A DNA stretch of 64,000 bases from a phage (GCA_036253495.1 GCA_036253495.1_4125.1), one strand, 5' to 3'. Shown: positions 37,244 to 62,845, numbered from the stretch's first letter. Program-made: numbers and translations. Notes: a model not told the origin generated them from the letters alone.

Positions 37244-37939
37244 ATGACTCAACAATTTATGTTTGGTGGTTATGCGAATGGTGAAACAACTAACATTTCA
37301 ATTCCATATGTAGTTGAAAAAGTTAATGGCAACGAACGTACTTATGATCTAGCATCTCGTATGATGCAAGACCGTATCATTTTCCTTGATACTGATTTCA
37401 ACGACCAGATGGCACATATCATCAAGCAACAATTGGTGTGGTTGGATTCTCAAGGTTCTGAACCAATTACTCTTTATATTTCCTCGCCGGGTGGTAGTGT
37501 TCATGCAGGTTTGGGTATTTCTGATATTGCTAAATCTTGTGTATCACCAATCCGCACAGTAGTGATGGGTTATGCAGCATCAATGGGTTGCTACACACAA
37601 TCAGTAGTTGGTACTAAAGGTTATCGTCTTGGTGGTAAACGCTCGTACTTTATGTGTCACCAAGTAAGTTCTGGTACACAAGGTCTGATCACTGATCAGA
37701 AAATTGCACTAAAACACTCTGATGCATTGAACACATTGCTGACGAAAGAAATCGCTGAAGCTGTAGGTGTTTCTCATGAAAAACTACTAGAAGATGCGGA
37801 CCGCGATTTGTGGTTGAGTGCAGATGAAGCACTTGAGTATGGTGAACTTGGATTTATCGATGGTATTATCCTTGGTCCACGTAATGAAAAAGGTCAATAC
37901 CTAGTTAAACGTCGCGGTGGCGTGGAAGAGTGGGTATAA
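37244..37939 (+). CDS. clpP: ClpP-family serine peptidase
   Basis: 231 aa; ClpP signature blocks ISSPGGSV.AGLGI and MGYAASMG (catalytic Ser), His in MCHQ, Asp in DADRDLW. Confidence 0.85.
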   Translation: MTQQFMFGGYANGETTNISIPYVVEKVNGNERTYDLASRMMQDRIIFLDTDFNDQMAHIIKQQLVWLDSQGSEPITLYISSPGGSVHAGLGISDIAKSCVSPIRTVVMGYAASMGCYTQSVVGTKGYRLGGKRSYFMCHQVSSGTQGLITDQKIALKHSDALNTLLTKEIAEAVGVSHEKLLEDADRDLWLSADEALEYGELGFIDGIILGPRNEKGQYLVKRRGGVEEWV

Positions 37940-39659: not shown

Positions 39660-40181
39660 ATGAACTATAATCAATTATCACAAGAAGATACTGATATTTG
39701 GCTAAAGAACGTAAACAATACGTTGGAACTTGTGCGACAATGTATTTCGGAAGCTGACCGTGTATCAGACGAAGCTAAAGAAAAAACATACAAACACTTT
39801 CACCGTAATATCTTCATGAAAATTTATGCACTTACTATGTATAATATGTACAAACCATCTGATATTTTTATTGGGTTGTATAGTGGGGCGATGTTCACAT
39901 TAGGTGGGATTTTTTCAGATACTGGTCGTACATTAGAACAAAACGAAAAAGATGTTATCGTGGCAGTTGATAAGATTATGAATAAGGAAGTGGATTTCAT
40001 TCTGGAAATCGTTCGTTGCTGGAATGTTTATAGCTCAAAACCATTTGACATTACACAGAAAGATATAGTAGACTATATGCGTATTTTACGTACACATCAG
40101 ATCTGTAAAGAACTATTAACCAATTTAGGGACATATGATGAAACATACAACGTGGTTGAAGATAGCCAGTGTCGTTGCTGA
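39660..40181 (+). CDS. hypothetical protein
   Basis: ORF track. Confidence 0.65.
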   Translation: MNYNQLSQEDTDIWLKNVNNTLELVRQCISEADRVSDEAKEKTYKHFHRNIFMKIYALTMYNMYKPSDIFIGLYSGAMFTLGGIFSDTGRTLEQNEKDVIVAVDKIMNKEVDFILEIVRCWNVYSSKPFDITQKDIVDYMRILRTHQICKELLTNLGTYDETYNVVEDSQCRC

Positions 40182-40617
40182 GGAAAGTAAGTGTCTTTCC
40201 CAGAAAGTAGGTTGTGTTATTGTAAAGAATAACCGAGTATTGAGTACTGGATATAACGGTACACCATCAAAGCAACCTAACTGTTGTGATGTTAATAAAC
40301 ATCTCGTAAACAATGGTCAATTTCAAAATTGGATTGATGAAGATGCAAAACACTTACATCACGAGTGGAGCAACATTCATGAGATCCATGCGGAAATGAA
40401 TGCATTACTATATAGTTCACCACAAGAACGTCAGGGTGCAACACTTTACACCACACTCCAACCGTGCTATACTTGTTCTAAGTTAATCGCTGGTAGTGGT
40501 ATTTCTCGTGTAATTTACGAAAAATCGTATCCTCGCACTCCACCAGAAGCTATTAAAGTACTGGAAGATGCTGGGATTATTGTAAATTGTATCTATGATA
40601 ATGGACTCAATAAATGA
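40135..40617 (+). CDS. cd: dCMP deaminase
   Basis: 160 aa; zinc-binding deaminase motifs HAEMNAL and PCYTCS. Confidence 0.85.
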   Translation: MMKHTTWLKIASVVAEESKCLSQKVGCVIVKNNRVLSTGYNGTPSKQPNCCDVNKHLVNNGQFQNWIDEDAKHLHHEWSNIHEIHAEMNALLYSSPQERQGATLYTTLQPCYTCSKLIAGSGISRVIYEKSYPRTPPEAIKVLEDAGIIVNCIYDNGLNK

Positions 40618-40874
40618 CAATGGTATATTTGTTTCTAGGTTGTATTGTTATATTTGTATTGTTTGCTATCTATTGTTTAGTTGATACTGATTATTCAATG
40701 CGTGGTAATAAGAATTATCAAGTACGTTTTTCCCCGCATAATAACAAGTACTACATTGTGAATGTTAGCCACACTACTGGTCGTGAAATGAAAGTAACTG
40801 GTAGATTTGGCTTTACAATTTACTATGATAACCAAATTGATGTTGATTATGTTGTTGAAAAGTTAAATAAATGA
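40614..40874 (+). CDS. small membrane protein
   Basis: 86 aa; N-terminal hydrophobic helix; ATGA overlap. Confidence 0.6.
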   Translation: MTMVYLFLGCIVIFVLFAIYCLVDTDYSMRGNKNYQVRFSPHNNKYYIVNVSHTTGREMKVTGRFGFTIYYDNQIDVDYVVEKLNK

Positions 40875-40875
40875 G

Positions 40876-40901
40876 AAAAGGAGCCTATGGCTCCTTTTTT
40901 A
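40876..40901. terminator. bidirectional rho-independent terminator between convergent genes
   Basis: aaaaggagcctatggctcctttttt: symmetric hairpin flanked by A-run and T-run. Confidence 0.7.
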
Positions 40902-41276
40902 TTATGCTTTTTTACGTAGGATGTATTGTCCATTATGTAATTTAATTTTGTGAATCATGTACATAGTGCAAAACCCTTCAATACCTGCTTCTTCATCTTT
41001 CAATTTAATGAAGAAAGTATTATCTCTTAGGCTTTCTACAAGGCTTTCATCTGAATCTTCGAAATTCATGATATATGAATCTTTATTTCTATACACCATC
41101 TGAACATATTCATAAACCTTACCGCTTTCATCGATTAGATCATAAGTATGTGCTGAACGTTGTTTTAAAATATATAGTTTACCAAGAATAGCTGCTCCAT
41201 TAATTTTAGCACCAGTAATTTCGATACCATTAATAGAAAAAGGAAGTCTTCCGGTTAATGCAATTGGTTTACCCAT
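40902..41276 (-). CDS. hypothetical protein, paralog of the N-terminal domain of the Ig-like repeat protein
   Basis: Track ORF 40902..41318 trimmed to internal ATG giving MGKPIALTGRLPF..., matching the N termini of its two paralogs; GGAGAAG RBS. Confidence 0.6.
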   Translation of the reverse strand: MGKPIALTGRLPFSINGIEITGAKINGAAILGKLYILKQRSAHTYDLIDESGKVYEYVQMVYRNKDSYIMNFEDSDESLVESLRDNTFFIKLKDEEAGIEGFCTMYMIHKIKLHNGQYILRKKA

Positions 41277-41336
41277 TATTATTATACTTCTCCAAGTAAA
41301 GTGCATGATAATTTTCATGCACTATATTATTAAAAA

Positions 41337-43763
41337 TTAAGCACTGATTGTTACAGTTGCAGTATCAGTTTTATTGCCATTCGCAGTAGTCACTGTAATG
41401 ACTACAGTACCTTCTTCTAGAGCAGTTACTAATCCATCATCACTAATAGATACTTTAGTAGGTTCATCTGCACTATAAGTTACTGATTTGTTAGTTGCGT
41501 TAGCTGGAAGAACTTCTGGAACTAGTTGAACTGTTTTAGTACCTGATAGTGAAAGATCAGTGGCTTTAGGTGTTAAACCAACGCTGGATACTGGTACTGG
41601 AATATTAACAGTTACAGCACATTTTGCAGTTTTTGCACCATCAGTAGTTTTTACAGTGATATCAGCAGTACCGTTTGCAACAGCAGTGATTAAACCACTT
41701 GCACTAACAGTTGCGACCCCAGCAGCAGAAGTACTATAAGTTACTGCTTTGTTAGTTGCATTAGCTGGTAGTACAGTTGGTGTTAGTTGTTGAGTTGCAC
41801 CAACAGATGTTAAAGTTGCTGTTGTTGGAGAAACAGAAACACTAGCTACAGGAACTGGGATTGACACAGTAATGACACCTTGACCTGTTTTACCACTTCC
41901 ATCAGCGGCAGTTGCGATAATGTTTGCAGTACCGTTAGTTAACGCAGTTACAACACCAGTACTAGCATCAACTTTCGCTACAGCAGGTGCACTAGAAGAC
42001 CATGTTACAGCTTTATTAGTTGCGTTAGCTGGAAGAACTTCAGCAGCCATTGCTTGAGTTGCGTTAACAGCAGTCAATGTTTTAGTTGCTGGTGTAACAT
42101 TAATAGTTGTTACTGGAACTGGAATTGCTACAGTTACTGCACAAACCGCAGTTTTTGCACCATCAGCGGTTGTTACGGTGATGTTAGCAGTGCCATTTGC
42201 TACAGCAGTTATCAATCCTGAAGTGCTAACAGTTGCTACACCCGCATTAGAAGTACTATAAGTTACTGCTTTATTGGTTGCATTAGTTGGTGCAACCGAT
42301 GGTGTTAGTTGTTGTGTTGCACCAACAGATCTTAAAGTTGCTGTTGTTGGAGAAACAGAAACACCAGTTACTGGTACTGGAATATTAACAGTTACAGCAC
42401 AAACTTTACTAAAGCCACCATCAGCAGTAGTAGCCGTGATATTAGCAGTGCCATTCGCTACCGCAGTGATTAAACCACTTGTACTAACGGTTGCAACACC
42501 AGCAGCAGAAGTTGCGTATGTTACTGCTTTGTTACGAGCATTAGCTGGTAGAACAGTTGCAGTTAATTGCTGTGTTGCACCAACAGAAGTTAATGAAGCG
42601 GTTGCAGGTGTTAGGTTAATACCAGTTACTGGGATCGTCACATCAATAATTGATTGTGCGGTTTTTTCACCATCAATAGTTGTTACGGTAATAGTGGCAG
42701 TACCATTATTAACAGAAGTTACTAAACCGTCATCATCAACTTCTGCTACTGTAGGTGCAGAAGATTCATAACGAACTTCCTGATTTGATGCAGTTCTTGG
42801 TAGTACCGTTGCTGTTAATGGTTCATTTGCACCAATAGTAGTGAATGTATATGTTTCAGGTGTTAACGTAACACCAGTTACTGCTGTTTGAACTTTAATA
42901 GAAGAAGTATCAGTAAATGAACCATCTTCAGATGTTGCAGTAATAGTAACATCACCATTGGATACACCTGTTACCAACCCAGAATCTTTATCAACTGTTG
43001 CAACGGATGGAGCAGATGAAGTCCATATAACTTTCTTGTCTGTTGCTGAGGCCGGAGTAACTTCAGCTAACAATTGTTGAGTTGACCCAACGTTTACAGT
43101 TGCAGATTTAGGAGAAACGGTAACACCAGTAACACCAGTACTGACAACGATAGAACACACATCTGTGAAATCACCATCGTGAGTTGTTACGGTTACATCA
43201 GCATTGCCATTTGCAAGTGCAGTTGCTAGACCTGTTTGAGCATCAACTTCAACGATTGTAGGAGCAGATGAAGAGTAGGTTACTGCCTTGTCTTTTGCAT
43301 TAGATGGAACTACTTGGGCTGATAGTTGTTTTGTTGCACCAACTTTAAGAGATGCATCTTTGGGTGTAATTACAACACCAGTTACGGGGATATCAGCATT
43401 AACATAATCGCGTTTTACGATACGACCATTATTTAATTTAATAACACGACCCATATAAAGCATAGTATACCCCATGCTAATACCATCATCAACATAGATC
43501 ATGAATGAATTGTCTTGAACCATATTAATTGCGTCTGCTGGTTCAACAGAATTTGGAATGTCGATACCACGAGTATCATACCAACGCATGGAAACTTTGT
43601 AATAGATATCACCATTATCATTGATGAGATCATACACGTTACCGGAACGTTGACGGTTAATATATAAAGTTTCCGTTAACACCTTACCATCGATTTTAGC
43701 GACAGAAACTTTAATACCACCAATACCAAAAGGCAATTTACCTTCACTAGATATTGCTTTCAT
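41337..43763 (-). CDS. virion-associated Ig-like (Big_2-type) repeat protein, Hoc-like decoration/adhesin candidate
   Basis: 808 aa; N-terminal ~130 aa domain shared with flanking ORFs, then about seven tandem ~90 aa repeats with VTGV..P.......G.TQQL...V.P.NATNK.VT..SS....ATV...GL.TAV.NGTA.IT pattern; late promoter upstream. Confidence 0.75.
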   Translation of the reverse strand: MKAISSEGKLPFGIGGIKVSVAKIDGKVLTETLYINRQRSGNVYDLINDNGDIYYKVSMRWYDTRGIDIPNSVEPADAINMVQDNSFMIYVDDGISMGYTMLYMGRVIKLNNGRIVKRDYVNADIPVTGVVITPKDASLKVGATKQLSAQVVPSNAKDKAVTYSSSAPTIVEVDAQTGLATALANGNADVTVTTHDGDFTDVCSIVVSTGVTGVTVSPKSATVNVGSTQQLLAEVTPASATDKKVIWTSSAPSVATVDKDSGLVTGVSNGDVTITATSEDGSFTDTSSIKVQTAVTGVTLTPETYTFTTIGANEPLTATVLPRTASNQEVRYESSAPTVAEVDDDGLVTSVNNGTATITVTTIDGEKTAQSIIDVTIPVTGINLTPATASLTSVGATQQLTATVLPANARNKAVTYATSAAGVATVSTSGLITAVANGTANITATTADGGFSKVCAVTVNIPVPVTGVSVSPTTATLRSVGATQQLTPSVAPTNATNKAVTYSTSNAGVATVSTSGLITAVANGTANITVTTADGAKTAVCAVTVAIPVPVTTINVTPATKTLTAVNATQAMAAEVLPANATNKAVTWSSSAPAVAKVDASTGVVTALTNGTANIIATAADGSGKTGQGVITVSIPVPVASVSVSPTTATLTSVGATQQLTPTVLPANATNKAVTYSTSAAGVATVSASGLITAVANGTADITVKTTDGAKTAKCAVTVNIPVPVSSVGLTPKATDLSLSGTKTVQLVPEVLPANATNKSVTYSADEPTKVSISDDGLVTALEEGTVVITVTTANGNKTDTATVTISA
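41500..43300 (-). repeat. in-frame tandem coding repeats (Ig-like domain array)
   Basis: Near-identical DNA segments recur at about 270 nt spacing; these also create the spurious antisense ORF 42274..42771. Confidence 0.6.
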
Positions 43764-43799
43764 ATACTTTCCTTTATAAATTGTATTGTAGTGTTATAT

Positions 43800-43807
43800 T
43801 ATTTATA
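43800..43807 (-). promoter_or_regulatory. T4-type late promoter TATAAATA
   Basis: Reverse complement of tatttata, about 36 nt upstream of the minus-strand start at 43763. Confidence 0.55.
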
Positions 43808-43831
43808 TTATACCAAAAGTATTTTAGGATT

Positions 43832-43854
43832 AAAAAAAGGAGTCCGAAGACTCC
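43832..43854 (-). terminator. rho-independent terminator (minus strand)
   Basis: Hairpin ggagtc cgaa gactcc; the A-run on + reads as a T-run on minus. Confidence 0.65.
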
Positions 43855-43867
43855 TTAAAATATAAAG

Positions 43868-44383
43868 TTATTGGAAACGAGCATACGGTGGGAATCTGGT
43901 TTGGTCAGGCCAATCTTTCGGAGAGAAGTAAGCAGTGAATTGCATTTTATCATTTGAATAAAGAACAAAATCATCTGGCTTTATTATAACTTTAGACAAC
44001 GAATTTGGCTCCACGTTCGTTCTTCTGAAAATTATTTCACCATTATGTAATTTTATTTTATTACTTTGATATTGAATACCAAAACCATACTTATTATTAA
44101 TAGCATCAGCTTCTTTTATGCAAAATGTATTATTTGCTAAAGATTTAGCAATTTCAGCATCGTCATCATCATACAACAATGTTGATTTATCTTTATTTCT
44201 ACCTGTGATTTTTATATCTTTGTAAATCTTGAAATTTTCAGATATTAAATCATATGAATCGAATGTTCTTTGTTTTATAACATACAATTCTTTAACAAAT
44301 ACTTGCCCTTCTATCTTTGCAGCAGTAACCTGCAATCCACCTATAACAAATGGAAATTGATCTAAGCCAGCTATTGGTTTCAT
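43868..44383 (-). CDS. hypothetical protein, paralog of the N-terminal domain of the Ig-like repeat protein
   Basis: 171 aa; MKPIAGLDQFPFVIGGLQVTAAKIEGQV...IKLHNGEII parallels the other two paralogs. Confidence 0.65.
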   Translation of the reverse strand: MKPIAGLDQFPFVIGGLQVTAAKIEGQVFVKELYVIKQRTFDSYDLISENFKIYKDIKITGRNKDKSTLLYDDDDAEIAKSLANNTFCIKEADAINNKYGFGIQYQSNKIKLHNGEIIFRRTNVEPNSLSKVIIKPDDFVLYSNDKMQFTAYFSPKDWPDQTRFPPYARFQ

Positions 44384-44517
44384 AACATCTCCTTACCTTA
44401 AAAATGGGATTGTAAACTGCCTCCCAATATGATACCATAGTTCAAATGGTCAATTGGTAAATCAATGAACTTAACAAAAACACTTGATACTACAGTCATA
44501 ATTGTTCAGTTTTGCAC

Positions 44518-44546: not shown

Positions 44547-44581
44547 TATTTATGTTCCTTAACTCAAATCCGAGGTAATCA

Positions 44582-45187
44582 ATGAAACGAATCTTGAAAG
44601 AGATTGTACAAACCGTTGTTTTAATCGCTGCATTAAACTTTCCGGCAGCGGCAGAAGTTTCAAAAAAATCATCTGTTTTTCTATTAAATGAACATGTTGT
44701 GTCAATTGATGGTGAACTAAATGATGAAACTGTACAAGAAGTGAAGAAGTTGTGGAAAGAAACAAGATTTAAAATTTTAACAATTACATCACCTGGTGGA
44801 GATTTTGATGCAGGATTAGATTTGGGATTGTTTGTGGCTGCTAAAAAGTTAACTGTTTATGTCCCAAAGCAATGTAATTCGTCTTGTAGTCTGGTTTTTT
44901 TCTCTGCATCATCTGAACGTAGGGATATGAGTGATACCGCAGTGATGGGTTTACATAACATCTCACTAGTATCTACGAATGGTGCAGATCCAGATACGAC
45001 ATTCGTTTCAGTTAGACAGTTGATGGAGTTTACACATCAAGTCTCAACTAAAGTTGGGTATCTTTTTACACTGTACGCACATAACGGTATCCCCGCTGAA
45101 ACACTCATTGATATCAGTACTAAACATGGTGAGGATATCGTTGTCTTACGAAGATCAGATCTCGTTAAATGGGGAATCATTCAATAA
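44582..45187 (+). CDS. secreted ClpP/S49-like (crotonase-fold) protein, possibly a divergent or inactive peptidase
   Basis: 201 aa; N-terminal signal-peptide-like segment; ITSPGGDFDAGLDLGLFV resembles the ClpP SPGG block, but the catalytic Ser context is not canonical. Confidence 0.4.
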   Translation: MKRILKEIVQTVVLIAALNFPAAAEVSKKSSVFLLNEHVVSIDGELNDETVQEVKKLWKETRFKILTITSPGGDFDAGLDLGLFVAAKKLTVYVPKQCNSSCSLVFFSASSERRDMSDTAVMGLHNISLVSTNGADPDTTFVSVRQLMEFTHQVSTKVGYLFTLYAHNGIPAETLIDISTKHGEDIVVLRRSDLVKWGIIQ

Positions 45188-45589: not shown

Positions 45590-46192
45590 ATGACTTGTAT
45601 TATTGCTTACACTGATGGTAACACATCTTTTATCGCGGGTGACAAACTGGGTAGTAATGGTTTCACTAAAGCAATTCAAACTGAACCAAAAGTGTTTGAA
45701 AAAGAATTCATCAAAATCGATGAAAGTGGATTGAATCGCACCAAAGAAGTTATGGCAATGGGATACACGTCGAGCTTCCGCATGGGACAATTGCTGACGT
45801 ATAAACTTGATTTACCTGAACAGCAATCAAACCAAACATTCTCACAGTACTTAGTACTTGAGGTAATCCCACGTATTCGCACACTCTTCAAAGAAGAATG
45901 GGGTGCTCGTGATACAACTCAAGACGTTGGTGGTGGACAGTTTATTATTCTCCACAATCATACAATTTATGAAGTTCAAGAGGATTTTTCAGTACTCCAA
46001 CCTAAGACACAAATTACATCTGTTGGTAGTGGTACATATCATGCAATTGCAGCTATGCAAGCATATATTGAAGTTCAAAAAGAAACAGGTGTTAAGATGG
46101 TTGATCGCACCGATTCTATCTTCAAAATTGTAAGTGATAATGTTACCAGCGTTAGTGCTGAGTATGATTTACTAAGCTATCCTAAGCTGTAA
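45590..46192 (+). CDS. HslV/proteasome-like Ntn-hydrolase peptidase candidate
   Basis: 200 aa; Met-Thr N terminus then CIIAYTDG.TSFIAGD and later SVGSGTYHAIAAMQAY, resembling HslV blocks. Confidence 0.5.
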   Translation: MTCIIAYTDGNTSFIAGDKLGSNGFTKAIQTEPKVFEKEFIKIDESGLNRTKEVMAMGYTSSFRMGQLLTYKLDLPEQQSNQTFSQYLVLEVIPRIRTLFKEEWGARDTTQDVGGGQFIILHNHTIYEVQEDFSVLQPKTQITSVGSGTYHAIAAMQAYIEVQKETGVKMVDRTDSIFKIVSDNVTSVSAEYDLLSYPKL

Positions 46193-59505: not shown

Positions 59506-59513
59506 TATAAATA
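59506..59513 (+). promoter_or_regulatory. T4-type late promoter TATAAATA
   Basis: Exact TATAAATA about 32 nt upstream of the tail-fibre-like gene start. Confidence 0.6.
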
Positions 59514-59544: not shown

Positions 59545-62244
59545 ATGGCAAAGAAAATATATGGTGGCATTGATGTTACACATAATGTAACAGTCAAAGG
59601 TAAGAGAAGTGTTCAGAGCATCAATGATAACGTATTTGATGAAAATGGCAATCTCACAATAGATGCATATACACAAGATGATATGCTGGAAATGGTTGGT
59701 ATGTTACCCATTTCTCGTTATGGTACACAAAACTATCTACCTGCTGGTGTCAATGGTACAACAGTTGGTTCTTCAGAAAATGCTAGTTCCAGAAATACAA
59801 AATTATTTTTGGAAGATGATAACACTTTAGTAATGTTACGTCCGGGTACTAATGGAAGTTCACAGGGGATTTATTATAGTTATATGACCCAGGCGGTTGG
59901 TACAACAAATACAAGTCGTATGGTTAATACTACTCGTGCATATAAACCAAATTATTTTGGTGCTGGGTATGCAGTTTATTTGTATCCAAGCAGTGATGAT
60001 ATTACTTGTGGTTTGGTGAGAACTGAAAATTCTGATGGTACATATATTGATAGAGTTTTTGTTTCAGTCAATAATGGTACTATGAATGATACAATGCACA
60101 CTGGTATTATTCTATCAGACCATACAGCCGTACAACCTTTTGGTGCAATACAATTTGTTATTCGTGCTGAAGATGGTTCATTATACTTTTTCAGTTTAGA
60201 TACACCAAGCAATACTCTTAAAATATCCGTTACTAAAGTTACTTTTAGTCCAAGTAATAACCCAGGTGGTGGTACTTATAGTGTTACTAGAATTACTGGT
60301 TGGGCCACAAGAACTTTTTATAATGCAATGGTATATGATGACAATATTGTTCCAACTATGAAAATAAATTCAACAAATACCAATGATAATCCATACGTTT
60401 TAATTCCAAGTGGTATTATTGGGTTTGGTGTTTATATGACAGATCCAGATTTATATGTTGCACAGAAATCTGGTACATCCGAATTCAGATTTAGATTATG
60501 TGGTGATATGTGGATGACAAATGGACGATATGACACACGCCCACAACATGGTTTTAGTATGACTTTTGATGTTGTGACAAAACAATGTAAATTAGATAAT
60601 ATGTTAACGACTACACCAGTTGCTGTTAATGACACGGGTTCAAGTATGAATGTAACGGGTCAATGCATAACAAAAGATCCATTTTATCTTCACGCGGGTC
60701 TGCGTAATATTTTTAGTAATTATTGCTATGTACCATCAACTGGTGATGCATTTTGTTCATTCTCACCAAACCTCGCAGAAGCATTGAACTTATCATATGC
60801 GAAATATCCACCACAGTCATTGTTTAATTTAATGAATGTTAGAAGTGTATCAGCAACTAATTTTATTAATGGTGTAGTATCACCAAGATTTGGTTCAGCA
60901 GTTGGTTCATACCAAGTAGGTGTAGAGTTATTACCAAATAACAGTACTAAACAATATTCAAGACGTTCTGGTGATGGTCGTTTTTATCCATCCTATGCTG
61001 TACATAAAGCTACACCGAACTTCACATTTAAGTCTCTAGACTATGGTACTGTTCCTGGTTATGAACCAACACCAGACCGAGCGTTTATAACTACACCAGA
61101 ATCTAGAATTTTTATAAGTTCAATTTCTGGATCAACGGTAACGACTAATGGTGGTGTTTTGGTGGCTGATAATAGAACATCAACTCCTATTAGTTTTGAT
61201 TATAAAGGTAATGTACTGAATAATGGTACAATCAGTATGTCTCAAGATATAATGAATGCTATTCGAAATTCCGAATTTGCTAAAGTTGCTAGTTCATGGA
61301 ATATATCACCAGAATCAATAAAAACATTATCTGTATTTGTTCCACAACAAACTGATATTCCTGTTTTTGGTGTTCTTGCAGCATCTACTACAGCCCGTGG
61401 TCTATATATTCGAGTTGTTGAATTGAATGTCAATACAAGAACTGGTGATATTACAACGTGGTCGTTCAAACGTTTAGTACATGAAAGTGTTCAAGCTGGG
61501 GATTACAAAACAGATACCGCATATCATCTTGATAGTGGAAGTATTGGTATTACTATATATGATGCGGGTTCTTTCTACTTCATTGGTGGTGGTATTCCTG
61601 GTTTCTTTAATACAGTTGGTAATACAAACTCTCCATTTTTCCGTGCTACAGTGGATAAAGCGACAGCCCAATTTAATAATTTCCATATAGCTGGTGGACG
61701 TCCGATCTATGCATTAGATGGTCAACCATTCGCTTTACCTAACATTGGGTTTGGTATTCTTCAAAGTATAGATAATAATAACAAAACAATTTTTAGAACA
61801 TATGGTACAACATTAGCGGATTATAATGCATGGACTGATAAAGGAAATCCAGTTATATGTCTTGTTTCCCAAGATGTTGCTCAAGGTTTTATTATATACT
61901 TCACCGAAGAGACACCAGTACTGATATCCGGTAAACACTATACATTACCAATATCAAATATAGATTTAACAACTGTGAAAGCAAATCCTGCCAATACTAC
62001 ATTTTATGTGTATATTAAATTAGTACAGGGTATTGCAAACTATCATATATCAACAACTGAATTAGCTGAAACTCATTCAATATTCTGGATTGGTACAGTG
62101 AAAACTGATAATTTACAAATAACCGAAATTAATATAGAAAAACGTTCTCGTTTAGACCTGTTTGGTTCATCATTCAACGCTGCCGGAAGTTCCTTCCCAG
62201 TAAGTTCTGGGTTCCCTTCAAGTTCTGGTAATGTGAATTGGTAA
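59545..62244 (+). CDS. tail fibre / receptor-binding protein candidate
   Basis: 899 aa; Gly/Ser/Thr/Asn-rich; late promoter; N-terminal block MLPISRYGTQNYLPAGVNGT shared with the ORF at 62856; C-terminal block shared with 62255..62845. Confidence 0.6.
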   Translation: MAKKIYGGIDVTHNVTVKGKRSVQSINDNVFDENGNLTIDAYTQDDMLEMVGMLPISRYGTQNYLPAGVNGTTVGSSENASSRNTKLFLEDDNTLVMLRPGTNGSSQGIYYSYMTQAVGTTNTSRMVNTTRAYKPNYFGAGYAVYLYPSSDDITCGLVRTENSDGTYIDRVFVSVNNGTMNDTMHTGIILSDHTAVQPFGAIQFVIRAEDGSLYFFSLDTPSNTLKISVTKVTFSPSNNPGGGTYSVTRITGWATRTFYNAMVYDDNIVPTMKINSTNTNDNPYVLIPSGIIGFGVYMTDPDLYVAQKSGTSEFRFRLCGDMWMTNGRYDTRPQHGFSMTFDVVTKQCKLDNMLTTTPVAVNDTGSSMNVTGQCITKDPFYLHAGLRNIFSNYCYVPSTGDAFCSFSPNLAEALNLSYAKYPPQSLFNLMNVRSVSATNFINGVVSPRFGSAVGSYQVGVELLPNNSTKQYSRRSGDGRFYPSYAVHKATPNFTFKSLDYGTVPGYEPTPDRAFITTPESRIFISSISGSTVTTNGGVLVADNRTSTPISFDYKGNVLNNGTISMSQDIMNAIRNSEFAKVASSWNISPESIKTLSVFVPQQTDIPVFGVLAASTTARGLYIRVVELNVNTRTGDITTWSFKRLVHESVQAGDYKTDTAYHLDSGSIGITIYDAGSFYFIGGGIPGFFNTVGNTNSPFFRATVDKATAQFNNFHIAGGRPIYALDGQPFALPNIGFGILQSIDNNNKTIFRTYGTTLADYNAWTDKGNPVICLVSQDVAQGFIIYFTEETPVLISGKHYTLPISNIDLTTVKANPANTTFYVYIKLVQGIANYHISTTELAETHSIFWIGTVKTDNLQITEINIEKRSRLDLFGSSFNAAGSSFPVSSGFPSSSGNVNW

Positions 62245-62254
62245 TGGAGATAAT

Positions 62255-62845
62255 ATGGCTTATAAATTTAGATCTGATGTGGAAGCGTATGCTTCCGTTA
62301 AATCACAAGGAAAAAATACTGGGACCACGATAACTGATCGTTCTGGTAATGTGTATCAAGCTGATGCTAATGGGAATGTTGATGTACCACTCATGAGTAC
62401 AGATGATGTGAATTACATTACCAGTTCCTTTCCGTTATCACAATTTGGTTCACTTTACAGTACTGAACCATTGGGTATTTCTGCTGCTGGTTTCAATTTA
62501 ACTTTCAGCAAAGAATTACCGTTATTCATGGCGGGAGCGGCGTATACCCTCCCAGCTAAAACAATAACGGACCCAGGAGTTACTGGAACTAATATTGAAA
62601 CACATTATGTATATGTTATATTAGATGTTGGGGTAGCTGACTACCTCATTTCTAAAACTCAACGCCCTGAAAGTAGTGTTAATATGTACATAGGACAACT
62701 GACAGTTTTCCCAGATGGCATTACAGGGGTCAGTATAAATAAAGTGTCAAGATTTGACGACTTCAGAGTAAGTGCTACAAAAATTGGTTCAGCTATCCCT
62801 ATCAGTTCTGGTACACCAGATGTGAATAGTGGGACAGAATGGTAA
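62255..62845 (+). CDS. tail-fibre-associated protein (shares C-terminal module with the upstream fibre gene)
   Basis: 196 aa; YTLPAKTITDP...HYVYVILDVG...SINKVSRFDDF parallels HYTLPISNIDL...FYVYIKLVQG...NIEKRSRLDLF; both end in SSG..W. Confidence 0.55.
   Translation: MAYKFRSDVEAYASVKSQGKNTGTTITDRSGNVYQADANGNVDVPLMSTDDVNYITSSFPLSQFGSLYSTEPLGISAAGFNLTFSKELPLFMAGAAYTLPAKTITDPGVTGTNIETHYVYVILDVGVADYLISKTQRPESSVNMYIGQLTVFPDGITGVSINKVSRFDDFRVSATKIGSAIPISSGTPDVNSGTEW

What the first reader, a model, noticed from the sequence alone, without database searches (positions are those of the whole stretch)
40902..44383. Minus-strand late block: an Ig-like repeat protein and two stand-alone copies of its N-terminal domain
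Three consecutive minus-strand genes share a ~125 aa N-terminal domain (M-K-x-I-x...P-F-x-I-G-G-I/L...IKL.NG). The middle gene fuses it to about seven Big_2-type Ig-like repeats. A TATAAATA late promoter lies upstream of the long gene and terminators bracket the block. The repeat array is near-identical at the DNA level, so it is prone to expansion and contraction and may act as a variable adhesin or capsid decoration.
Basis: partly seen in the sequence, partly recalled or inferred. Interest (0 to 1): 0.5.

Follow-up and report, generated by a model that had tools for sequence, protein, structure and literature searches.

The report
Variable Ig-repeat virion protein locus
A giant E. coli phage carries three neighbouring genes that share a small "anchor" domain found in virions of related phages, one fused to eight Ig-like domains; the number of domains and genes at this spot changes even between nearly identical phages, but this kind of phage surface protein is already known.

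Summary
The window is from a RaK2-like jumbo coliphage (Asteriusvirus; 99-100% identical to phage A4 across this block). Three minus-strand genes share a ~120-aa N-terminal domain (33-42% identity, BLASTP E 1e-20 to 1e-33). The middle gene adds EIGHT Big_2 domains, not seven.

Two claims fail or need changing:
- The repeats are not near-identical. They are 52-83% identical at DNA level, with a longest shared word of 33 nt.
- One "stand-alone copy" (171 aa) is a deletion scar. An 11.4-kb microhomology-mediated in-frame deletion removed most of a 1881-aa gene and three further genes still present in a close relative. In A4 the scar also carries a premature stop.

Repeat number does vary. Contigs with an identical 124-aa gene carry 8, 7 or 6 Big_2 units, and more distant relatives carry 0-9.

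Orthologues were detected in virions by mass spectrometry (phAPEC6 gp347, the highest coverage of 62 proteins; CBB_112). The N-domain has no Pfam family and no PDB fold match.

Best reading: an N-terminal virion anchor, probably on the capsid, that displays a dispensable Ig-like rod. It is functionally Hoc-like. This is a new member of a known kind, of moderate interest.

The parts
40876..40898 (.). Bidirectional intrinsic terminator shared by gene 1 (-) and the converging + strand gene 40614-40874
   Evidence: Ten-pair stem, -14.1 kcal/mol, z -4.55, followed by a U-rich tail.
40902..41276 (-). Gene 1: 124-aa stand-alone N-domain protein, stop codon included. The mechanical ORF extends to 41318, but that start is unlikely.
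   Evidence: Hits phrog_10468 and phrog_33171 at E 3e-18 and 3e-16. 100% identical to A4_463 and found unchanged on 15 public contigs. The AF2 model has pLDDT 83 and is all-beta.
41300..41323 (-). Stable hairpin between gene 2 and gene 1 with a poor U-tract. It may be a weak terminator or an RNA-stability element. It contains the spurious ATG at 41318.
   Evidence: -12.4 kcal/mol, z -4.3.
41337..43763 (-). Gene 2: 808-aa protein made of an N-domain plus eight Big_2 Ig-like units
43386..43763 (-). N-terminal anchor domain of gene 2 (aa 1-126)
   Evidence: The AF2 model shows the same beta topology as gene 1, then a low-confidence hinge at aa 120-122. Among 9 near-identical alleles there are 6 synonymous sites against 1 non-synonymous site.
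41340..43385 (-). Array of eight Big_2 units, 84-88 aa each: R1 43134-43385, R2 42882-43133, R3 42630-42881, R4 42372-42629, R5 42114-42371, R6 41850-42113, R7 41592-41849, R8 41340-41591
   Evidence: Pairwise identity is 41-85% at aa level and 52-83% at nt level. R4, R5 and R7 form the youngest subgroup.
42114..42371 (-). Unit R5, the unit absent from phage A4 and from the 722-aa and 638-aa alleles. It is a 258-nt in-register indel whose endpoints can be placed anywhere between about 42130-42387 and 42147-42404.
43800..43807 (-). TATAAATA, a T4-type late-promoter-like motif 44 nt upstream of the gene 2 ATG. It is embedded in TATAATATAAATA.
   Evidence: position conserved in A4, UE-S1, ph0011, JNE01, CBB and EJP2. 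PMC5259590.
43837..43856 (-). Intrinsic terminator after gene 3: UUCG tetraloop, 8-bp stem, U7 tract
   Evidence: -11.7 kcal/mol, z -3.2.
43868..44383 (-). Gene 3: 171-aa deletion remnant. It consists of the N-domain, the first ~35 aa of an Ig-like unit, and the last 11 codons of a different gene.
43901..43909 (-). Deletion junction: 9-nt microhomology (CCTGACCAA on the coding strand) where the 5' end of the 1881-aa gene joins the 3' end of the 567-aa gene of the relative
   Evidence: The 5' arm is identical for 483 nt and the 3' arm for 146 nt with 1 mismatch.
44426..44453 (-). Sigma-70-like promoter candidate upstream of gene 3 (TTGACC-16-CATATT). It is weak evidence only. A distal CATAAATA lies at 44547-44554 (-), 171 nt before the ATG.
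   Evidence: The number of promoter-like hits in the region is no higher than in shuffles.

Best explanation
The block is the hypervariable 'anchor-plus-display' locus of RaK2-like jumbo phages.

Anchor. The ~120-aa N-terminal domain is a compact all-beta module resembling tandem SH3/Tudor-like barrels. It has a conserved but unstructured N-terminal arm. It is proposed to be the constant part that fixes the protein to the virion surface, most probably as one of the still unassigned high-copy decoration proteins of the T=28 capsid.

Display. In gene 2 a flexible hinge joins this anchor to a rod of eight Big_2 Ig-like domains. The rod is estimated at roughly 30 nm, taking ~3.6 nm per domain from the invasin rod (recalled from prior knowledge, not checked here). 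It would project from the particle and give weak, accessory adhesion to host-surface or environmental glycans, in the way T4 Hoc does.

Expression. Gene 2 and the downstream gene 1 are probably transcribed late from the TATAAATA motif. Gene 1 supplies a bare anchor that fills the same or a paralogue-specific site without a rod.

Gene 3. It is what remains after an 11.4-kb in-frame deletion removed a second, much larger display array.

The display parts are dispensable. They change by in-register recombination between diverged repeats, by microhomology deletion and by allele exchange. The anchor is kept under purifying selection.

Shown here: domain content, homology, synteny, the variation among relatives and the deletion. 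Shown by others: virion presence of orthologues. Inferred: the anchoring role, capsid location, adhesion and late timing.
For: DOMAINS
- Big_2 x8. The N-domain hits phrog_33171/phrog_10468, both labelled 'virion structural protein'.
- AF2 models have pLDDT 83 and 85. The conserved residues 1-13 are disordered. A low-confidence hinge at aa 120-122 is followed by a confident beta-sandwich.

VIRION PRESENCE OF ORTHOLOGUES
- phAPEC6 gp347 is a 125-aa N-domain-only protein at the syntenic site. MS gave 8 unique peptides and 75.2% coverage, the highest of 62 proteins, above the major head protein at 74.9%.
- CBB_112: 4 peptides, 24.3% coverage.
- The phAPEC6 and 121Q capsids show a second-layer protein equimolar with the major capsid protein and a hexamer-centre protein. 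Neither is assigned to a gene.

ARCHITECTURE ACROSS THE FAMILY
- There are about 100 clusters among 1.84 billion representatives. In almost all listed hits the domain starts at residue 1, while total length runs from 102 to 1859 aa.
- The C-terminal parts are Big_2 (43 of 89), Invasin_D3/Big_1, HYDIN-like Ig or unrecognised.
- Bare-anchor forms occur in several separate clades.

DISPENSABILITY AND PLASTICITY
- Big_2 counts at the syntenic locus are 0, 1, 2, 6, 7, 8 and 9.
- Contigs with an identical gene 1 carry 8, 7 or 6 units.
- The window differs from A4 by one clean 258-nt unit in otherwise 97-100% identical DNA (mostly 99-100%).
- An 11,380-nt deletion has a 9-nt microhomology at its junction.
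- The remnant carries a nonsense mutation in A4.
- The anchor of gene 2 shows 6 synonymous against 1 non-synonymous site.

EXPRESSION
- NATAAATA lies 38-45 nt upstream of the ATG in seven orthologous loci.
- TATAAATA occurs only 3 times in the window against 10.7 expected.
- The late-promoter proposal for CBB and GAP32 is in PMC5259590.
- Terminators.
Against: - No structure or experiment places the N-domain on the capsid or on any particular site. The same papers describe unassigned fibres and decoration proteins on the collar and tail sheath.
- MS sequence coverage is only a rough proxy for abundance.
- phAPEC6 has capsid fibres although its orthologue has no Ig domain. The Big_2 rods are therefore not the fibres seen there.
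- The anchor role is inferred from architecture and conservation, not from an interface.
- Binding of these Big_2 units to any ligand is untested.
- Late timing rests on a motif only. Gene 3 has no proximal late motif.
- Whether the three paralogous anchors (33-42% identical, in three separate clades) bind the same site is unknown.
Confidence: 0.6

Rival explanations
1. The N-domain anchors the proteins to the tail rather than the head, at the sheath rings, collar or neck. The Ig arrays would then contribute to the 'hairy' or whisker-like appendages described on the tails of 121Q, phAPEC6 and CBB. Everything else (display, accessory adhesion, variability) stays as in the main explanation.
For: - phAPEC6 and 121Q have unassigned fibres at three annular positions on the sheath, and 12 elongated decoration proteins at the collar and at the distal tail.
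- The CBB authors suggested that Ig-like proteins could be related to the whiskers.
- RefSeq labels several orthologues 'major tail protein'.
Against: - The 'major tail protein' label comes from the Big_2 part only. The PHROG tail-protein hits all map to the repeats.
- phAPEC6 and 121Q have the hairs, yet their orthologue has no Ig domain at all.
- Coverage as high as that of the major capsid protein fits a capsid-wide protein better than a few rings, though a sheath-wide 150-copy protein is not excluded.
Confidence: 0.22
2. The long protein is a true receptor-binding or host-range determinant needed for infection. Its repeat-number changes would then be adaptive switches of host specificity.
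For: - The locus is the most variable part of the region in otherwise 99-100% identical phages.
- RaK2 gp496 was listed by its authors among possible phage-host interaction proteins.
Against: - The well-studied relatives PBECO4, 121Q and phAPEC6 infect E. coli with no Ig domain at this locus.
- There is no distinct C-terminal tip or lectin domain. The protein ends with a Big_2 unit.
- Losses of 1-2 units, and of 11.4 kb of a sister array, are tolerated.
- These phages encode separate large tail-fibre sets.
Confidence: 0.08
3. The block is decaying baggage. The stand-alone and long proteins would have no present function in this phage and would simply be on their way to loss.
For: - Gene 3 is a deletion scar and is pseudogenised in A4.
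- 121Q carries an N-domain remnant upstream of gp471.
Against: - Gene 1 is identical on 15 contigs.
- The anchor of gene 2 shows 6 synonymous against 1 non-synonymous site.
- All eight units keep open reading frames and strong Big_2 scores.
- The syntenic gene is kept across at least four genera and is found in virions.
Confidence: 0.05

Closest known systems
RaK2 gp496 / CBB_112 / GAP32 Ig-domain protein / phAPEC6 gp347 / 121Q gp471 / PBECO4 gp098 (phrog_33171, phrog_10468)
   Same: - Same N-terminal domain.
- Same genomic position: antisense, next to the dCMP deaminase cluster, with a ClpP-like protease gene on the other side in the Asteriusvirus and RaK2 loci.
- Same late-type motif upstream in CBB. 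The PBECO4/121Q/phAPEC6 loci have TATAAATA only 195-281 nt upstream, and RaK2 shows none.
- Virion proteins by MS in phAPEC6 and CBB.
   Different: - Those proteins carry 0 or 1 Big_2 unit. Here there are 8, plus two more paralogues in tandem.
- The three paralogues in the window belong to three different clades of the family.
Phage A4 A4_463-A4_466, and the alleles on public contigs L013-L020
   Same: The block is 97-100% identical at DNA level in 150-nt windows (mostly 99-100%), with the same genes in the same order.
   Different: - A4 lacks unit R5 (722 aa). Its copy of gene 3 has a 4-codon deletion and a stop at codon 66.
- Other alleles have 6 units.
- Others keep the undeleted 14.9-kb block.
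T4 Hoc (highly immunogenic outer capsid protein)
   Same: - The proposed mode of action: a dispensable, late-expressed virion-surface protein in which one domain binds the particle.
- A string of Ig-like domains projects outward for weak adhesion.
   Different: - In Hoc the capsid-binding domain is C-terminal and the Ig domains are N-terminal. Here the order is reversed.
- There is no sequence or fold similarity of the anchor to anything in the PDB.
- The Ig type is Big_2.
- Capsid location is not shown.
Ig-like (Big_2) domains appended to phage structural proteins, e.g. the lambda gpV C-terminal domain (Fraser et al. 2006, cited in PMC5259590)
   Same: Big_2 domains added to a structural protein as accessory surface decoration.
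   Different: Here the carrier is a dedicated small anchor domain rather than a tail-tube or capsid protein. The array is long (8 units) and copy-number variable.
Bacterial intimin/invasin adhesins
   Same: Rod of tandem Big_2/Big_1-type Ig-like domains. Some family members even carry Invasin_D3.
   Different: There is no beta-barrel membrane anchor, no signal peptide and no C-terminal lectin-like tip. The N-terminus is a phage-specific domain.

Membership tests
Pfam Big_2 (PF02368) repeat proteins | Matches to the Big_2 profile above the gathering score | tested here: met
   8 stretches, 437 bits against a 22.8-bit cut-off, E 4e-134. The AF2 model of unit R1 is a confident beta-sandwich.
RaK2-like 'virion structural protein' N-domain family (phrog_33171 / phrog_10468) | Significant profile match of the N-terminal ~120 aa | tested here: met
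   best E per gene is 2.9e-18 (gene 1), 1.5e-13 (gene 2) and 5.3e-20 (gene 3); all three lie inside a family of about 100 clusters.
RaK2-like 'virion structural protein' N-domain family (phrog_33171 / phrog_10468) | Syntenic position: antisense, next to the dCMP deaminase cluster, with a ClpP-like protease gene on the other side | tested here: met
   In CBB, EJP2 and fHe-Yen9-04 the far-side neighbour is a cytidyltransferase or NMN adenylyltransferase rather than the protease.
RaK2-like 'virion structural protein' N-domain family (phrog_33171 / phrog_10468) | Presence in purified virions | not testable with these tools
   Shown for the orthologues phAPEC6 gp347 and CBB_112 by MS. Not shown for this phage.
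T4 Hoc-type capsid decoration | Tandem Ig-like domains on a dispensable late protein | tested here: met
   Big_2 x8. Natural loss of units and of a sister array. Late-type motif.
T4 Hoc-type capsid decoration | Homology to Hoc, with a C-terminal capsid-binding domain | tested here: not met
   The anchor is N-terminal. No PDB sequence or fold match. No Hoc family among the Pfam or PHROG hits.
T4 Hoc-type capsid decoration | Binding at capsid hexamers | not testable with these tools
   Unassigned hexamer-centre and second-layer densities exist in phAPEC6 and 121Q, but there is no assignment to a gene.
Major tail (tube) protein, as annotated in RefSeq for RaK2, CBB and others | Tail-tube fold or homology outside the Ig domain | tested here: not met
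   The PHROG 'major tail protein' hits align only to the Big_2 units. The N-domain model has no tail-tube match.
Intimin/invasin adhesins | Outer-membrane beta-barrel anchor and C-terminal lectin-like tip | tested here: not met
   Pfam finds only Ig-type domains. The protein starts with the phage N-domain and ends in a Big_2 unit.
T4-type late promoter | TATAAATA about 10 nt upstream of the transcript start, in front of a virion gene | tested here: met
   Sequence present at -44 from the ATG. The position is conserved in 7 loci. The motif is depleted elsewhere in the window.
T4-type late promoter | Dependence on a phage late sigma factor, with late timing | not tested
   The phAPEC6 paper mentions a phage-encoded sigma factor. 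No transcript data were examined.

The most novel reading that the evidence does not exclude
The ~120-aa N-domain would be the long-unassigned high-copy decoration protein of the T=28 RaK2-like capsid, either the second layer equimolar with the major capsid protein or the hexamer-centre plug. It would represent a new decoration fold (tandem small beta-barrels plus an N-terminal arm) that serves as a universal socket. Paralogous anchors would load different Ig-like rods, from 0 to more than 1,700 aa, onto defined capsid positions. A phage lineage could then re-dress its head by simple recombination or deletion at a single locus.
Probability: 0.35. Interest if true: 0.55.

Novelty: new member of a known kind. 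Interest (0 to 1): 0.35.

Why it matters
Ig-like surface arrays on phages are known, and this gene family has been noted in RaK2, CBB and phAPEC6. The finding therefore does not open a new category. Its value is practical.

1. It names a concrete candidate for the capsid decoration densities that two cryo-EM studies of 121Q and phAPEC6 left unassigned. The candidate is the 124/125-aa N-domain protein, which has the highest MS coverage in phAPEC6.
2. It shows a natural series of alleles in otherwise near-identical phages: 8, 7 or 6 units, and a 14.9-kb versus a 3.5-kb block. That series is ready-made for testing what Ig-like display does for a gut jumbo phage.
3. It corrects misleading database labels ('major tail protein').
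4. The anchor could serve as a display scaffold for jumbo-phage engineering, as Hoc does in T4.

Tried and rejected
SEARCHES THAT FOUND NOTHING
- PDB sequence search with an N-domain profile: nothing below E 0.1.
- The afdb50 fold library was unavailable.
- The search for related loci in viral contigs and genome contigs with the gene 2 anchor.
- megablast against complete E. coli genomes.
- Literature searches for a high-resolution RaK2-like capsid structure that assigns the decoration proteins.

READINGS CONSIDERED AND REJECTED
- Near-identical repeats that slip. The identity matrix rules this out.
- Gene 3 as a purpose-built stand-alone domain. The deletion junction rules this out.
- The weak Peptidase_S24 Pfam hit of gene 3 (E 0.0023, below the cut-off). 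This was treated as noise from a shared small beta-barrel.
- Diversifying selection on unit R2. Synonymous changes are equally concentrated there, so it looks like an exchanged tract.
- The sigma-70 promoter scan gives no more hits than shuffles, so no weight was placed on it.


Full report
CONTEXT

The window is AT-rich (about 34% GC). Apart from the block in question, it is coded almost entirely on the plus strand. Megablast places it in the RaK2-like jumbo coliphages, genus Asteriusvirus. The closest record is Escherichia phage A4 (355 kb). The dCMP deaminase gene next to the block is about 83% identical in PBECO4, 121Q, phAPEC6 and others.

The block 40902-44383 is a three-gene antisense island. 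It sits between a dCMP deaminase cluster and a cluster of ClpP-like/HslV-like protease, Sir2, Nudix and PhoH genes. An N-domain gene occupies the same antisense position next to the deaminase cluster in every relative examined. These were PBECO4, 121Q, phAPEC6, RaK2, CBB, EJP2, JNE01, UE-S1, ph0011 and Yersinia phage fHe-Yen9-04.

CHECK OF THE OBSERVATION

The three ORFs exist as described. Pairwise BLASTP gives 33-42.5% identity at E 1e-20 to 9e-34. All three hit phrog_33171, and genes 1 and 3 also hit phrog_10468. Pfam has no family for this domain.

The middle protein (808 aa) has eight Big_2 stretches (E 4e-134), not about seven. The unit boundaries fall at aa 127, 211, 295, 379, 465, 551, 639 and 725.

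The first ORF should be read from the ATG at 41276 (124 aa). That start reproduces the family's N-terminus (MGKPIA...), follows a GGAGAA ribosome-binding site, and agrees with A4_463. The upstream ATG lies inside a hairpin.

The claim that the array is near-identical at the DNA level is wrong:
- Pairwise nucleotide identity is 52-83%, mostly about 60%.
- Only R4, R5 and R7 are a younger subgroup (72-83%).
- The longest exact word shared by two units is 33 nt.

REGULATORY ANATOMY

- Gene 3 is followed by a textbook intrinsic terminator at 43837-43856: UUCG loop, U7 tract, -11.7 kcal/mol.
- Next comes TATAATATAAATA, with TATAAATA at 43800-43807. An AGGAAA ribosome-binding site and the gene 2 ATG follow, 44 nt after the start of the motif.
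- TATAAATA occurs only three times in 64 kb, against 10.7 expected. One of the other copies is also 32 nt upstream of a long ORF (59545).
- NATAAATA sits 38-45 nt upstream of the ATG in A4, UE-S1, ph0011, JNE01, CBB and EJP2.
- The CBB paper proposed ATAAATA as the late promoter of structural genes in CBB and GAP32 (PMC5259590). Late expression is therefore plausible but untested.
- Between gene 2 and gene 1 there is a stable hairpin without a good U-tract, and no promoter motif. Gene 1 is probably co-transcribed with gene 2.
- A bidirectional terminator closes the block at 40876-40898.
- Gene 3 has only a sigma-70-like match that is no better than chance, plus a distal CATAAATA.

WHAT THE N-DOMAIN IS

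A profile search of 1.84 billion cluster representatives finds only about 100 clusters. In almost all listed hits the match begins at residue 1, while total length runs from 102 to 1859 aa. A fold search of viral models extends the fold only to Agrobacterium jumbo phage Atu_ph07 and a few uncultured phages.

The parts that follow the domain are Big_2 in 43 of 89 representatives, Invasin_D3/Big_1 in several, HYDIN/ASH-type Ig in others, or unrecognised.

AlphaFold2 models gave the following:
- The gene 1 model (pLDDT 83) is a compact all-beta domain with one short helix.
- Residues 1-13 are disordered in the model, although K3, I5, P12, F13 and G17 are among the most conserved positions.
- The model of gene 2 residues 1-210 (pLDDT 85, pTM 0.51) shows the same N-domain, a low-confidence hinge at residues 120-122, and a confident Ig sandwich.

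The constant N-terminal position, the conserved but unstructured arm, the flexible hinge and the interchangeable Ig-type cargo are what one expects of an anchor domain. That role is an inference.

VIRION EVIDENCE FROM THE LITERATURE

The phAPEC6 orthologue gp347 is 125 aa, consists of the N-domain only, and sits at the syntenic site. It was found in purified virions with 8 unique peptides and 75.2% coverage. That is the highest coverage of all 62 virion proteins, above the major head protein (74.9%) and the sheath (68.0%) (PMC7247149). CBB_112, which has the N-domain plus one Big_2, was found with 4 peptides (PMC5259590). RaK2 gp496 was flagged by its authors as a possible host-interaction protein (PMC3622015).

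Cryo-EM of phAPEC6 (10 A) and 121Q shows three sets of features. None of them is assigned to a gene:
- an elongated second-layer protein equimolar with the major capsid protein;
- a hexamer-centre protein;
- fibres and decorations on the collar and sheath.

I found no later high-resolution structure of this phage group. A very abundant 14-kDa virion protein with no assigned place is a natural candidate for one of these densities. This favours the capsid but does not prove it.

The RefSeq label 'major tail protein' stems from the Big_2 part only.

VARIATION AT THE LOCUS

Across relatives the syntenic gene carries the following numbers of Big_2 units:

| Phage | Big_2 units |
|---|---|
| PBECO4, 121Q, phAPEC6 | 0 |
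| RaK2, EJP2 (CBB 218 aa, per its annotation) | 1 |
| JNE01 | 2 |
| UE-S1 | 6 |
| A4 | 7 |
| this window | 8 |
| ph0011 | 9 |

Against A4 the block is 97-100% identical at nucleotide level in 150-nt windows (mostly 99-100%), except for one clean 258-nt indel that removes exactly unit R5.

Fifteen public contigs encode a gene 1 product identical to the window's. Next to it they carry long genes of 808, 722 or 638 aa. These correspond to all eight units, loss of R5, or loss of R1 and R5.

The R5 junction is the same in A4, L013 and L017. It lies in the conserved last strand (VCAVTV) of R4 and R5, as expected for in-register unequal recombination between neighbouring units that are 72% identical.

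Among nine alleles, differences cluster in R2. Both synonymous (11 of 24) and non-synonymous (8 of 15) sites are concentrated there, so R2 looks like an exchanged tract rather than a target of selection. The anchor shows 6 synonymous against 1 non-synonymous site.

GENE 3 IS A DELETION SCAR

Its tail after the N-domain begins like an Ig-type unit and then stops. Representatives P0021 (1095 aa) and P0022 (1859 aa) match it at 76-78% identity over its first ~158-169 residues, and they continue where it ends.

A 359-kb contig (GCA_011911785.2) has a protease gene, a gene 1 and an 808-aa gene whose products are identical or near-identical to the window's. In that contig the block reads 1881 aa, 832 aa, 629 aa, 567 aa, 808 aa, 124 aa, and spans 14,862 nt against 3,482 nt here.

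- The window's gene 3 is identical to the first 483 nt of the 1881-aa gene.
- From 43909 downward, the sequence is identical, with one mismatch, to the last codons of the 567-aa gene plus the intergenic region. Both proteins end in PDQTRFPPYARFQ.
- The two arms overlap in a 9-nt microhomology, CCTGACCAA, at 43901-43909.

An 11,380-nt in-frame deletion therefore produced the 171-aa ORF. In A4 and two metagenomic contigs the remnant has a further 4-codon deletion and a stop at codon 66. A simple series fits the data:
1. 8 units plus the long array;
2. 8 units plus the scar (this window);
3. 7 units plus the scar (L013);
4. 7 units plus the broken scar (A4).

In an NJ tree of anchors the three window paralogues fall in three separate clades. 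Bare-anchor forms appear in several clades. This suggests repeated loss of cargo with retention of the anchor.

INTERPRETATION

The best-supported reading is a modular virion-surface protein family with two parts:
- a conserved N-terminal anchor, proposed to mount the protein on the particle, more likely on the T=28 capsid than on the tail;
- dispensable Ig-like rods that give accessory adhesion, working like T4 Hoc without being related to it.

In Hoc the capsid-binding domain is C-terminal, and nothing in the PDB resembles this anchor. Eight Big_2 units with short proline-rich linkers (IPVPV) would form a rod of roughly 30 nm. That figure is my estimate from the published invasin rod, not a measurement.

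Rival readings are set out with the evidence for and against each. They are a tail anchor, an essential receptor-binding protein, and pure decay.

VERDICT

Three things are new here:
- the corrected anatomy: eight diverged units, and one 'stand-alone copy' that is a deletion scar;
- the documented allele series among near-identical phages;
- the nomination of the N-domain as a candidate for the unassigned decoration densities.

This is a new member of a known kind, of moderate interest.

Noticed in passing
window 59506-59513 (+), ORFs 59545-62244 and 62255-62845: A second TATAAATA lies 32 nt upstream of an 899-aa ORF (phrog_3573, function unknown). That ORF is followed by a 196-aa ORF (phrog_26864) that matches the same profile's C-terminal part. 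A third TATAAATA (62734-62741) lies inside that second ORF. The motif is depleted in the window (3 found against 10.7 expected).
   Followed up: partly
L014 + L023 (GCA_011911785.2, record 236617-251478); also L012 (GCA_012813795.2): In close relatives the same block is 14.9 kb and reads 1881, 832, 629, 567, 808 and 124 aa. In the similar block of L012, and for the 567-aa ORF here, the ORFs after the first consist of Ig-like units of another type (recurring 'DWxDQxGxWxYD'-type motif) and, where read, start without the N-domain. They may be anchorless proteins, or pieces of one giant gene split by stops or sequencing errors.
   Followed up: partly
window 42882-43133 (unit R2 of gene 2): Among nine alleles that are otherwise near-identical, R2 holds 8 of 15 non-synonymous and 11 of 24 synonymous variable sites. 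This looks like a short recombination or gene-conversion tract.
   Followed up: partly
L006 2873-3004 (121Q gp472, just upstream of gp471): The annotated 43-aa ORF reads ...GQDQFPFTLGGYLVDGVNIKG..., which is the start of an N-domain. The 121Q/PBECO4 lineage therefore seems to carry the remnant of a second paralogue.
   Followed up: no
window 41283-41285, 43838 and 44216-44227, compared with phage A4 (L001): Apart from the R5 indel, the only length differences from A4 are three small ones. There is a 3-nt indel between the ribosome-binding site and the ATG of gene 1, a 1-nt change in the U-tract of the terminator after gene 3, and a 12-nt in-frame deletion inside gene 3 of A4.
   Followed up: partly
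window 44582-45187 and 45590-46192 (+); 37244-37939 (+): Two protease-like genes lie directly beside the block (a phrog_26024 'protease' ClpP/crotonase-like gene and an HslV-family peptidase). By synteny with relatives, a ClpP-type protease gene (231 aa) lies further upstream and is annotated there as head maturation protease. The neighbours by synteny are Sir2, Nudix and PhoH genes. The role of these extra proteases is not known.
   Followed up: no
window 39660-40181 and 40135-40617 (+): The dCMP deaminase ORF overlaps the preceding ORF by 47 nt when read from the first ATG. Relatives annotate the deaminase with different starts (462-483 nt), so its true start is uncertain.
   Followed up: no
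L011 3916-4953 (Yersinia phage fHe-Yen9-04 g095c) and representatives P0045, P0076: Some family members carry 220-520 aa after the N-domain that match no Pfam family. They are possibly unrecognised cargo domains.
   Followed up: no
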